A stretch of DNA of 64,000 nt from Verrucomicrobiia bacterium (GTDB lineage: Bacteria; Verrucomicrobiota; Verrucomicrobiia; Limisphaerales; Pedosphaeraceae): the NCBI GenBank assembly GCA_036268055.1, contig DATAUW010000002.1:28124-92123 (forward strand). Direction: 5' to 3'. A program made the translations under genes and the position numbers. Of the stretch, positions 50,516-60,748 are shown in pieces. Numbering within the stretch: the first letter of the stretch is position 1; each line of letters opens with the position of its first letter. Below the pieces are notes generated by a model. The model saw only the letters and a list, made by a program, of their open reading frames with translations. It searched no databases and was not told the origin of the DNA.

Positions 50516-50596
50516 TTGGGTTTTCCAGCACAATACCAAAGCTGTTGGTGTTAAATTTGAGAAACGGTTAAAACCGTTTCTTGCATACGTTGGGAT

Positions 50597-50775
50597 TTTC
50601 CCCTAACTGAAGTTAGGGATTAATGAGAAGTGTTGGGCAAGTAGGTGAGGGTTGGTTCCATAAGCGGATTTCTTTCGTCCCTTCGGGACTTGATTTGCAA
50701 TGGACGCAAACCCAGCAATAAATTGCTGGGCAAATATCTGCCGTCCCTGCGGGACTTCGGACGGGGAGCGTCAGC
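50597..50775 (+). repeat. Structured ~180-nt repeat element, copy 1 (candidate ncRNA or MITE). It contains a 7-bp-stem/UGAA-loop hairpin, two gtccc-N3/4-gggac hairpins, and the 20-nt perfect palindrome cccagcaataaattgctggg.
   Basis: About 80% identical to 60270-60445. Both copies lie in convergent intergenic spacers. Confidence 0.55.
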
Positions 50776-60035: not shown

Positions 60036-60269
60036 GTTGCCGTATGAAAGCGAAAACTGAAAAGCGAAAAACTACTGACGCCATTGAGATTGTTGACCGG
60101 ATGGCAGGGGACAGTCCCGAACTAGCCAATTCGACGAACGGGCACAGAGAGGAAAACGAGATTAGGGATTGTTGGAATATGGATTGGGTGAAATTTTTGT
60201 TGGTTCGGTTTTGTTCCAAGGAACGGGCCCGCCTCGCTTTGCTCGGGATAGATTTTTTAAGGAGCGGCA

Positions 60270-60445
60270 TTTCCCCCGGCTGAAGCCGGGGGTTAATGAG
60301 AAGCGATTGGTTTTTGCGGGCGATGGAAGAGTGGCGGCGGAATTTCTTTCGTCCCTGCGGGACTTAATTTATGACGGATGGGAACCCAGCAATAAATTGC
60401 TGGGCTAAGTTCTGTCGTCCCTGAGGGGACTTTGGACGGCCGAGC
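60270..60445 (+). repeat. Structured ~180-nt repeat element, copy 2 (candidate ncRNA or MITE)
   Basis: Paralogue of 50597-50775. The 5' hairpin ccccggc-tgaa-gccgggg retains pairing through 3 compensatory changes relative to copy 1. Confidence 0.55.
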
Positions 60446-60748
60446 GGCGGTTCCGCACTGGCATGCCATGACATTTTCCGGCGTCCTTTCAGGACGCGAG
60501 AGAAAAGGGGATTGGCGTTCCGGGGGTGTTCGTCGCGCTGCGCGCTTCTCGACCGCCCGGCTAATTTTCGTCAACCCTCCGGGTTGAAAAAATCGGAAAT
60601 GCGATCAGTAAAAGCCGCCGCCGCAATATGACGCACGATCTGGCGGCAGATGCGCTTGCACCACAAATTTTATGTCAGCGCCAAATGATATTCATGACCG
60701 CAGATGCAGTTCAAAGTTGGGTTGAGATTGGAACGGCCAAAGCACCCA

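What the first reader, a model, noticed from the sequence alone, without database searches (positions are those of the whole stretch)
60270..60445. Compensatory base-pair changes in the 5' hairpin between the two repeat copies
Copy 1 reads ccctaac-tgaa-gttaggg and copy 2 reads ccccggc-tgaa-gccgggg. Three consecutive stem positions differ on both arms (TAA/TTA versus CGG/CCG), yet a perfect 7-bp stem and the identical UGAA loop are retained. Covariation of this kind is the classic signature of selection on RNA (or DNA cruciform) structure rather than on primary sequence. It argues that the element is functional rather than decaying junk.
Basis: seen in the sequence. Interest (0 to 1): 0.7.

Follow-up and report, generated by a model that had tools for sequence, protein, structure and literature searches.

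The report
Transposase-linked palindromic repeat, compensated hairpin
The two hairpin variants are real, but they sit in copies of a known multi-copy intergenic repeat (Rfam Acido-Lenti-1) that in related bacteria forms the inverted ends of a small HUH transposase gene, so the compensated stem is more likely a DNA hairpin kept for propagation than a new functional RNA.

Summary
Copy 1 (50601-50618) reads CCCTAAC-TGAA-GTTAGGG. Copy 2 (60274-60291) reads CCCCGGC-TGAA-GCCGGGG. Three adjacent pairs are changed on both arms, and all six changes are transitions. A neutral simulation gives P of about 3e-4 to 2e-3.

Only three copies of this 5' module could be found, in two variants. The third (L045, a Verrucomicrobiia MAG, different locus) is identical to copy 2. 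This is one compensated event, not a spectrum.

The hairpin is the first of three to four tandem modules, each a variable hairpin followed by a GUCCC..GGGAC hairpin. The central module scores above the Rfam gathering threshold for Acido-Lenti-1 (RF01687) in both copies. The 5' hairpin of copy 2 is a weak match to that model's first hairpin, and its three variable pairs fall in the zone that varies across the family.

In soil-metagenome relatives the modules occur singly, in tandem and as head-to-head pairs. In five independent loci they bracket an IS200/IS605-family Y1 transposase gene in inverted orientation, the layout of REP/RAYT (TIRtron) systems.

Best reading: a REP-like, transposase-associated repeat in a Verrucomicrobia genome, with stems kept as single-strand hairpins. 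RNA function is not excluded. It is a new member of a known kind, of modest interest.

The parts
50601..50618 (+). Copy 1, hairpin X1 (the reported '5' hairpin'): CCCTAAC-TGAA-GTTAGGG, 7 pairs
50620..50630 (+). Copy 1, conserved linker TTAATGAGAAG, followed by a 37-nt variable stretch (50631-50667)
50668..50691 (+). Copy 1, A1 leader plus hairpin (GTCCC-TTC-GGGAC at 50677-50689). Partial Acido-Lenti-1 match, model positions 24-45, 19.5 bits
50711..50756 (+). Copy 1, full Acido-Lenti-1 module: B hairpin 50711-50730, 12-nt linker, A2 hairpin 50743-50755
   Evidence: 47.9 bits, gathering score 37; 49.7 bits
50759..50782 (+). Copy 1, hairpin X3 (GGAC..GGAGC-GTCA-GCTCC-GTCC), with compensated changes relative to L045
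50795..50811 (+). Copy 1, remnant of a third A-type hairpin; its 5' arm and loop are deleted relative to copy 2
60220..60272 (+). Copy 2, 5' extension shared with L045 and absent from copy 1
60273..60292 (+). Copy 2, hairpin X1: CCCCCGGC-TGAA-GCCGGGGG, 8 pairs (reported as the 7-pair form 60274-60291). With the next 15 nt it is a weak match to the B hairpin plus CUAau of Acido-Lenti-1
   Evidence: 18 bits, E 0.06 over 4227 families; 19.1 bits, E 0.016
60293..60303 (+). Copy 2, conserved linker TTAATGAGAAG
60341..60365 (+). Copy 2, A1 leader plus hairpin (GTCCC-TGC-GGGAC at 60351-60363)
   Evidence: (18.5 bits)
60385..60431 (+). Copy 2, full Acido-Lenti-1 module: B hairpin 60385-60404 and A2 hairpin 60417-60430
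   Evidence: 46.4 bits; 47.3 bits
60438..60497 (+). Copy 2, third module: X3 hairpin 60438-60456 and A3 hairpin 60481-60497
   Evidence: (16 bits for A3)
60520..60586 (+). Copy 2, fourth module: long X4 hairpin 60520-60560, CTAATTTTCGTC linker, A4 hairpin 60572-60586
   Evidence: 60553-60586, 17.1 bits, E 0.049; D1

Best explanation
The reported hairpin is the first palindrome (X1) of a head-to-tail array of three to four modules. Each module is a variable-stem hairpin followed by a short leader and a GUCCC..GGGAC hairpin. The core A1-B-A2 belongs to the Acido-Lenti-1 family (Rfam RF01687).

The family behaves as a REP-like or TIR-type dispersed DNA repeat tied to an IS200/IS605-family (RAYT-like, 'TIRYT') Y1 HUH transposase. 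In relatives the same A1-B-A2 composite brackets the transposase gene as inverted repeats. Elsewhere it occurs as single copies, tandem arrays and head-to-head doublets between unrelated housekeeping genes.

Proposed mechanism (inferred): Y1 transposases act on single-stranded DNA and recognise hairpins by shape plus a few fixed bases. Only copies that can still fold are propagated or retained. The stem interior is then free to change as long as both arms match. The base of the stem, the closing pair and the loop stay fixed.

The TAA/TTA against CGG/CCG difference is one such compensated variant, probably carried by different master copies.

Shown here: family membership of the core, the module architecture, the transposase association in Acidobacteria-like contigs, and the non-random compensation.

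Inferred: that the Verrucomicrobia copies are or were mobilised in the same way, and that X1 itself is recognised. Co-transcription of these hairpin arrays in the 3' regions of the convergent flanking genes may add an RNA-level effect, but it is not needed to explain the data.
For: Core membership: both copies reach the Rfam gathering score for RF01687 (47.9 and 46.4 bits against 37).

Module architecture:
- A1, A3 and A4 give partial hits to the A half of the model.
- X1 of copy 2 and of L045 gives partial hits to the B half (18-19 bits).
- The variable pairs of X1 (5-7 of 8) fall in the zone that varies in the family's B hairpin (pairs 3-7). The fixed pairs 1-2 and 8 and the loops with U in first position, including UGAA, are also shared.

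Arrangement: of 41 module clusters in soil and peat loci, 25 are single, 10 are head-to-head inverted pairs with gaps of 93-209 nt, and the other 6 are 2-4 modules in tandem or other combinations. Neighbouring genes are unrelated housekeeping genes.

Transposase link:
- Three loci fetched by the DNA pattern alone encode a Y1 transposase bracketed by modules. These are L039 (PF01797, E 5e-21), L034 (E 2.7e-24) and L012 (frameshifted).
- Two further homologues looked up independently (P0184, P0142) show a (-) module 123-137 nt upstream of the gene and a (+) module 45-63 nt downstream.
- Each of these two genes sits at one conserved chromosomal site in every place shown, 10 each, as RAYTs do (my own knowledge).
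- JGI names many homologues 'REP element-mobilizing transposase RayT'.

Colinearity: the downstream inverted repeat (A1, about 21 nt, B, 12 nt, A2) is colinear with the window cores.

Gain and loss: L045 carries the copy-2 type at an unrelated locus in another species. DUF2147 orthologues in six relatives have no element downstream.

Genomic position: both window copies lie between convergent genes, the preferred site of REPs (PMC3733652).

Prior description: the same paper describes Acidobacteria Y1 transposases flanked by long inverted repeats, one of which is a repeat family in K. versatilis. That species supplies many Acido-Lenti-1 seed sequences.
Against: - No Y1 transposase gene lies in the window or in the 17 kb beside it.
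- All transposase-linked loci look Acidobacteria-like (NCBI names homologues Ca. Korobacteraceae); none is known to be Verrucomicrobia.
- X1 and its TTAATGAGAAG linker are not part of the inverted repeat next to the transposase genes. They were found in only three copies, so their role is inferred from weak similarity to the B hairpin.
- The window copies are one-orientation arrays, not inverted doublets.
- The transposases meet NCBIfam's IS200/IS605 model (56-66 bits against a cut-off of 55) but not the RAYT equivalog (16-30 bits against 80).
- The tetranucleotide next to B is CTA[A/T/C] rather than a fixed CTAC (= GTAG).
- Weinberg et al. rated the motif 'probably RNA' with strong covariation, and some A loops are cUUCGg-like.
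- Copy number in the source genome is unknown.
Confidence: 0.68

Rival explanations
1. The roughly 200-nt unit is an independently transcribed structured small RNA, an extended Acido-Lenti-1 sRNA. X1 is then an RNA hairpin, and the compensated pairs reflect selection on RNA folding.
For: - Rfam and Weinberg et al. class RF01687 as an sRNA with strong covariation.
- All six differences are transitions, so each pair could have passed through a G.U intermediate.
- L045 has a U.G wobble in the B hairpin on the + strand.
- RNAalifold recovers all hairpins, with compensated changes also in X3.
- Copy 2 folds better than its shuffles (z = -3.6).
Against: - No promoter-like site is shared upstream of the copies, and there is only a weak terminator-like site inside the unit, at A1.
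- Copy 1 has an MFE z-score of only -1.3.
- Head-to-head doublets, tandem arrays with periods of 69-115 nt and modules bracketing a transposase gene are not expected of sRNA genes.
- In the published seed, non-canonical cells are mostly A.C on the annotated strand (33 against 7 G.U), which is against RNA on that strand.
- The element is absent from orthologous sites in relatives.
Confidence: 0.12
2. The hairpin array is a host-retained cis element in the 3' untranslated regions of convergent genes. It would act as a transcription barrier or protect mRNA against 3' exonucleases. Selection would act on RNA hairpin stability whatever the origin of the repeat.
For: - Both copies lie between convergent genes, 80-230 nt after a + strand stop codon.
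- A1 is followed by a T-rich stretch (TTGATTT or TTAATTT) and scores as a weak terminator-like site in both copies.
- REPs have been hypothesised to play such roles (PMC3733652 abstract).
Against: - In the soil loci the crude gene context is mixed: convergent, tandem and divergent.
- There are no U-tracts after most hairpins.
- This does not explain inverted doublets or the transposase association.
- The stability of X1 differs almost two-fold between the copies.
Confidence: 0.1
3. The compensation is a mutational by-product rather than selection. One arm changed and the other was corrected from it by intra-hairpin template switching. Alternatively, the whole hairpin cassette was swapped by gene conversion from another family member.
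For: - The three changed pairs are adjacent.
- Outside X1, L045 is closer to copy 1 (20% different) than to copy 2 (29%), yet in X1 it is identical to copy 2. This is a mosaic pattern.
Against: - Template switching needs a first arm that already carries three adjacent changes.
- No donor with a TAAC/GTTA stem was found in 350 kb of related loci.
- Strong conservation of X1 plus linker between copy 2 and L045 argues for constraint.
Confidence: 0.06
4. Chance: two diverged copies of a decaying repeat happen to keep a palindrome.
For: There is only one lineage event and only three sequences. The shuffle control cannot go below about 0.03.
Against: The neutral simulation gives P = 3e-4 to 2e-3. 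All other hairpins are also kept (97% of cells paired, against 19-56% when partners are slid).
Confidence: 0.02

Closest known systems
Acido-Lenti-1 RNA motif (Rfam RF01687; Weinberg et al. 2010, PMC2864571)
   Same: The central 46 nt of both copies (B hairpin, GGC-UA..CUG.C linker, GUCCC..GGGAC hairpin) score above the gathering threshold. The copies have no consistent gene neighbours and occur several times per genome. Tandem copies are visible in the published Lentisphaera araneosa coordinates.
   Different: The host is a Verrucomicrobiae MAG; Table 1 of the paper lists Acidobacteria and Lentisphaerae as the common taxa. The reported hairpin lies about 95 nt upstream of the Rfam model and is not in it. 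The unit here is an array of 3-4 modules. The evidence gathered here points to a transposase-associated DNA repeat rather than an sRNA.
REP/REPIN elements and their RAYT transposases (E. coli, Pseudomonas; reviewed in PMC3733652)
   Same: Short imperfect palindromes with compensated stem variants. They are extragenic, often between convergent genes, and occur as singles, inverted doublets and clusters. Inverted copies bracket a single-copy Y1 HUH transposase gene at a fixed chromosomal site.
   Different: The repeat unit is a composite of two or three different hairpins (about 95 nt) instead of one 20-40 nt palindrome. The GTAG tag is not fixed (CTA[A/T/C]). The transposases score below the NCBIfam RAYT cut-off. 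Head-to-tail arrays are common, whereas they are rare for REPs.
TIRtrons / TIRYT transposases of Acidobacteria (Di Nocera et al. 2013, PMC3733652)
   Same: These are Y1 transposase genes flanked by long inverted repeats unrelated to GTAG REPs. In Koribacter versatilis one such repeat is a member of a dispersed repeat family. This matches the layout seen in L039, L034, L012, L061 and L071.
   Different: Sequence identity between the published K. versatilis repeats and Acido-Lenti-1 could not be checked, because the figure is not held as text. The window is from a different phylum, and no transposase is in view.
IS200/IS605 ends and their non-autonomous derivatives (IS608 paradigm; my own knowledge)
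   Same: The transposases meet the IS200/IS605 model. Recognition of sub-terminal hairpins on one DNA strand would explain stem compensation with fixed flanking bases.
   Different: IS200/IS605 ends are direct, not inverted. IS copies are multi-copy at variable sites, whereas the transposase genes here sit at one conserved site per species.
BOX elements of Streptococcus pneumoniae and BIMEs of E. coli (modular intergenic repeats; my own knowledge)
   Same: Modular build from a few hairpin-forming boxes, variable numbers of tandem modules, and an intergenic location.
   Different: There is no sequence relationship, and no transposase link is known for BOX.

Membership tests
Rfam RF01687 Acido-Lenti-1 | Covariance-model score at or above the curated gathering score (37 bits) | tested here: met
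   50711-50756 scores 47.9 bits and 60385-60431 scores 46.4 bits. A model rebuilt from the published seed gives 49.7 and 47.3 bits.
Rfam RF01687 Acido-Lenti-1 | The reported 5' hairpin is part of the family model | tested here: not met
   The hairpin lies 93-95 nt upstream of the match. It is itself only a sub-threshold partial match in copy 2 and L045 (18-19 bits) and gives no match in copy 1.
Rfam RF01687 Acido-Lenti-1 | Two hairpins joined by a conserved GGCUA..CG linker, with covarying stems | tested here: met
   Alignments. Pair counts on the seed and on 55 distinct full modules are.
REP / REPIN with RAYT | Short extragenic imperfect palindromes, many per genome | tested here: inconclusive
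   Palindromic and extragenic: yes. Copy number: only 2 clusters in 81 kb of the source contig. The whole genome was not available.
REP / REPIN with RAYT | Conserved unpaired GTAG (CTAC) tag next to the stem | tested here: not met
   After the B hairpin the seed has CTAA 17, CTAT 16, CTGA 12 and CTAC 4 of 61. The window has CAAA (copy 1) and CTAA (copy 2).
REP / REPIN with RAYT | Inverted doublets and clusters | tested here: met
   This holds for the family: 10 of 41 clusters are head-to-head pairs. It does not hold for the window copies, which are one-orientation arrays.
REP / REPIN with RAYT | Inverted copies flank a Y1 (HUH) transposase gene | tested here: met
   Seen at five independent loci: L039, L034, L012, L061-type and L071-type. 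It was not seen in the window or in its 17-kb flanks.
REP / REPIN with RAYT | The transposase meets the curated RAYT model (NCBIfam NF047646, cut-off 80 bits) | tested here: not met
   Scores are 16-30 bits. The same proteins meet NF033573 (IS200/IS605) with 56-66 bits against a cut-off of 55.
TIRtron / TIRYT (Di Nocera 2013) | Y1 transposase flanked by long inverted repeats that also form a dispersed repeat family | tested here: met
   an inverted repeat of about 95 nt, A1-B-A2; dispersed copies. Identity with the published K. versatilis repeats was not tested.
Trans-acting sRNA gene | Own promoter and terminator, and a discrete transcript | not testable with these tools
   Consensus scans found no + strand promoter-like site near either copy and only a weak terminator-like site at A1. 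No expression data were available.
CRISPR array | Near-identical direct repeats separated by unique spacers | tested here: not met
   The repeated A hairpins are only 71-86% alike. The 'spacers' are themselves conserved between copies and across phyla.
5' leader / riboswitch | Lies upstream of, and co-oriented with, a regulated gene | tested here: not met
   Both copies lie between the 3' ends of convergent genes, so neither strand precedes a gene.

The most novel reading that the evidence does not exclude
Acido-Lenti-1, curated for 16 years as a candidate sRNA, may in fact be the composite three-hairpin end of a distinct RAYT-like (TIRYT) Y1 transposase system. That system would have spread REPIN-like repeats through Acidobacteria and the PVC phyla. 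The Verrucomicrobia copies would then carry an extra lineage-specific B-like palindrome (X1 plus the TTAATGAGAAG linker) that has been co-opted, possibly at the RNA level in 3' untranslated regions.
Probability: 0.45. Interest if true: 0.5.

Novelty: new member of a known kind. Interest (0 to 1): 0.35.

Why it matters
For the window, it explains two long, gene-free intergenic regions as arrays of a known repeat family. It also warns against reading stem compensation as proof of a functional RNA.

More generally, the data link an Rfam 'sRNA' family to a Y1 HUH transposase. If confirmed on complete genomes, this would justify re-annotating RF01687 as a REP/TIR-type DNA repeat. It would extend its range to Verrucomicrobia. 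It would also offer a composite, multi-hairpin substrate for studying how RAYT-like enzymes recognise their ends.

Tried and rejected
Searches that led nowhere:
- More copies of the 5' module. The genome scan with TTAATGAGAAG-N35-55-TTTCGTCCCT gave one true hit (L045) and three chance hits. Two viral scans gave nothing. nhmmer over 350 kb of loci gave nothing new. Extending the source contig by 8 kb on each side gave no copy.
- Orthologous copies. Six DUF2147 orthologues (54-78% identity) have other genes or a short spacer downstream and no element. Synteny breaks there, so no orthologous comparison was possible. The look-up of the aldose-epimerase neighbour of copy 1 found no record.
- Spurious-ORF trick. 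A composite query of six-frame translations of the three copies found no protein at E <= 1. Exact look-up of the overlapping ORFs found nothing.

Readings considered and rejected:
- CRISPR array, tRNA/tmRNA, 5' leader or riboswitch: see the membership test.
- Small ORF starting at the AUG of TTAATGAGAAG. It would give peptides of 23-32 aa. Copy 1 against L045 shows 2 synonymous and 8 non-synonymous codon changes, and copy 2 is unrelated.
- X1 as the terminator of the upstream gene. No T-run follows it, and copy 1 has a separate terminator-like hairpin at 50561-50580.
- X1 as a relic of the 3' end of the transposase gene. Relaxed tblastn gave only noise.

Inconclusive tests:
- Strand test by G.U against A.C. 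The published seed favours the reverse strand (33 A.C against 7 G.U), but many of those copies are not independent. The soil set is nearly all Watson-Crick (5 against 2).
- Gene-context statistics from crude ORF calls were too noisy to use.

Full report
**1. The observation**

The two hairpins exist exactly as described. CCCTAAC-TGAA-GTTAGGG is at 50601-50618, and CCCCGGC-TGAA-GCCGGGG is at 60274-60291, both on the + strand. The coordinates in the finding cover only the second.

The two loci align over about 190-220 nt. They are the only copies in the window and in about 17 kb of flanking contig fetched through neighbouring genes.

Pairs 4-6 of the stem are replaced on both arms. The loop, the closing C-G pair and the CCC/GGG base are unchanged. 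All six differences are transitions.

Predicted RNA hairpin energies are -10.0 and -18.4 kcal/mol. Swapping the arms between copies destroys the central pairs.

With three sequences the shuffle control cannot go lower than the 13/500 observed. A neutral simulation at the measured divergence gives P = 3e-4 to 2e-3 for three double changes with all pairs kept. The compensation is therefore not chance, but it is a single event.

**2. How many copies and variants**

The window comes from a 715-kb JGI metagenome contig of a Verrucomicrobiae MAG.

A scan of 185,579 species genomes used a pattern that leaves the hairpin free. It found one further copy, L045, in a Verrucomicrobiia MAG, between different genes.

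Its hairpin and linker are identical to copy 2, and it shares a 50-nt 5' extension with copy 2. The rest of the unit is closer to copy 1 (20% against 29% differences).

That makes two stem variants in three copies, with no intermediates. The complete conservation of hairpin plus linker, against 29% divergence elsewhere, shows constraint.

Orthologues of the flanking DUF2147 gene in six relatives carry no element.

**3. What the unit is**

The 3' half of both copies is a full match to Rfam RF01687, Acido-Lenti-1 (47.9 and 46.4 bits; gathering score 37). This is a two-hairpin motif (B hairpin, linker, A hairpin) described by Weinberg et al. 2010 as a probable sRNA with no gene association.

Sensitive scans show more:
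- The hairpin upstream of B (A1), with its leader, matches the A half of the model.
- Two more A-type hairpins follow in copy 2.
- The reported 5' hairpin of copy 2 and of L045, plus GUUAAU, matches the B half (18-19 bits).

Each locus is thus a head-to-tail array of modules, each a variable hairpin X followed by an A hairpin (coordinates). X1 is the reported hairpin.

In the published seed and in 55 distinct modules from soil and peat contigs, the B stem keeps pairs 1, 2 and 8 fixed and varies with compensation at pairs 3-7. Its loops have U in first position, and UGAA is common. The fixed and variable positions of X1 follow the same pattern.

RNAalifold on the three copies recovers X1, A1, B, A2 and X3, and shows further compensated pairs in X3.

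**4. How the family is arranged**

A metagenome scan with the B-A pattern gave 40 loci. None of them has X1 with the TTAATGAGAAG linker, so this 5' module is specific to the window's lineage.

A covariance model built from the published seed found 142 full or partial modules. Of 41 clusters of full modules, 25 are single and 10 are head-to-head inverted pairs with gaps of 93-209 nt. The other 6 hold 2-4 modules in tandem or in other combinations.

The published Lentisphaera coordinates also show tandem arrays with periods of 69-74, 110-115 and about 195 nt. Neighbouring genes are unrelated housekeeping genes.

**5. The transposase link**

Three of the loci fetched by the DNA pattern alone encode a Y1 HUH transposase bracketed by modules:
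- L039: gene 253-690, PF01797 E = 5e-21, HUH and Y motifs visible.
- L034: gene 411-860, E = 2.7e-24.
- L012: frameshifted gene 687-1110.

In each, a (-) module lies just upstream of the gene and (+) modules lie downstream.

The protein has more than 1,400 homologues. JGI names many of them RayT, and NCBI places some in Ca. Korobacteraceae.

Two homologues were looked up independently.
- P0184 is always found between gyrA and a Ser/Thr kinase gene.
- P0142 is always found after dnaB.

In both, a (-) module ends 123-137 nt before the start codon, and a (+) module starts 45-63 nt after the stop codon.

The downstream repeat (A1, about 21 nt, B, 12 nt, A2) is colinear with the cores of the window copies.

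This is the REPtron/TIRtron layout. Di Nocera et al. 2013 describe Acidobacteria Y1 transposases flanked by long inverted repeats. In K. versatilis one of these is a dispersed repeat family.

The proteins meet NCBIfam's IS200/IS605 model but not its RAYT equivalog. No Y1 gene is present in the 81 kb available from the source genome.

**6. Most likely mechanism**

Y1 transposases of this superfamily work on single-stranded DNA and recognise hairpins (established for IS608 TnpA and E. coli RAYT; my own knowledge). A repeat that must fold to be copied or retained will keep its stems through compensated changes while its fixed recognition bases stay put. New compensated variants would spread as sub-families.

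This accounts for:
- the compensated X1 stem;
- the identical variant at an unrelated locus in another species;
- the arrays and doublets;
- the position between convergent genes.

Shown here: core membership, module architecture, the transposase association in Acidobacteria-like contigs, and the non-random compensation.

Inferred: that the Verrucomicrobia copies depend on such an enzyme, and that X1 itself is a recognised hairpin rather than a passenger.

RNA-level roles cannot be excluded. These include an sRNA or hairpins in 3' untranslated regions. No shared promoter was found, and there is only a weak terminator-like site at A1. In the published seed, non-canonical pairs are mostly A.C on the annotated strand (33 against 7 G.U). 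That speaks against an RNA on that strand and would fit G.T wobble on the opposite DNA strand.

**7. Verdict**

The element is a new member of a known kind, an Acido-Lenti-1 / REP-like repeat in a Verrucomicrobia genome with an extra B-like hairpin.

The most useful by-product is evidence that an Rfam 'sRNA' family is associated with a RAYT-like transposase. Interest is modest.

Noticed in passing
L039 253-690; L034 411-860; L012 687-1110; L061 2001-2438; L071 2001-2438: IS200/IS605-family Y1 transposase genes are bracketed by inverted Acido-Lenti-1 modules. Each of the two homologues looked up independently (P0184, P0142) sits at one conserved chromosomal site in every place shown, 10 each. 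This suggests RF01687 is a REP/TIR-type DNA repeat rather than an sRNA.
   Followed up: yes
window 60438-60586: The intergenic region after copy 2 holds two more modules beyond the reported repeat (X3/A3 and X4/A4). The 713-nt gap between the DUF2147 gene and the 259-aa gene is therefore largely an array of four modules.
   Followed up: yes
Published Acido-Lenti-1 seed (PMC2864571, Additional file 5): Non-canonical stem cells are mostly A.C on the annotated strand (33 against 7 G.U). B loops read UNNC, which is GNNA, mostly GNRA, on the opposite strand. The Rfam strand may be the wrong one, or the constraint may act on DNA. Many of these copies are not independent.
   Followed up: partly
window 60044-60283 (+): A 79-aa ORF is called as a gene in two Logan contigs (L003, L004) but not in the JGI contig. 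It ends at the TGA inside the loop of hairpin X1 and is probably a spurious call.
   Followed up: partly
window 50561-50580 (+): There is a perfect 7-pair hairpin, GAAACGG-TTAAAA-CCGTTTC, 46 nt after the aldose-1-epimerase stop codon and 20 nt before copy 1. It is likely that gene's terminator and marks the 5' edge of the repeat.
   Followed up: no
L052 17018-17140: A Pedosphaera-like relative carries one module with B stem CCCGGCGA/UUGCCGGG. Relative to the window's B hairpin it has a compensated A-U to G-C change at pair 4 and a G.U at pair 7. It is preceded by an inverted A-type hairpin. The family is therefore present elsewhere in Verrucomicrobia.
   Followed up: partly
L039 991-1187: A second, truncated copy of the 3' end of the transposase gene (27 codons, 63% identical) is followed by its own A1-B-A2 repeat. 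This indicates a local duplication of a gene end plus repeat.
   Followed up: no
window 60304-60350 against 60341-60363: In copy 2 the variable stretch between X1 and A1 is complementary to the A1 leader and its 5' arm, and the MFE fold pairs them instead of forming A1. It may be a degenerate inverted A hairpin. Copy 1 and L045 lack this.
   Followed up: no
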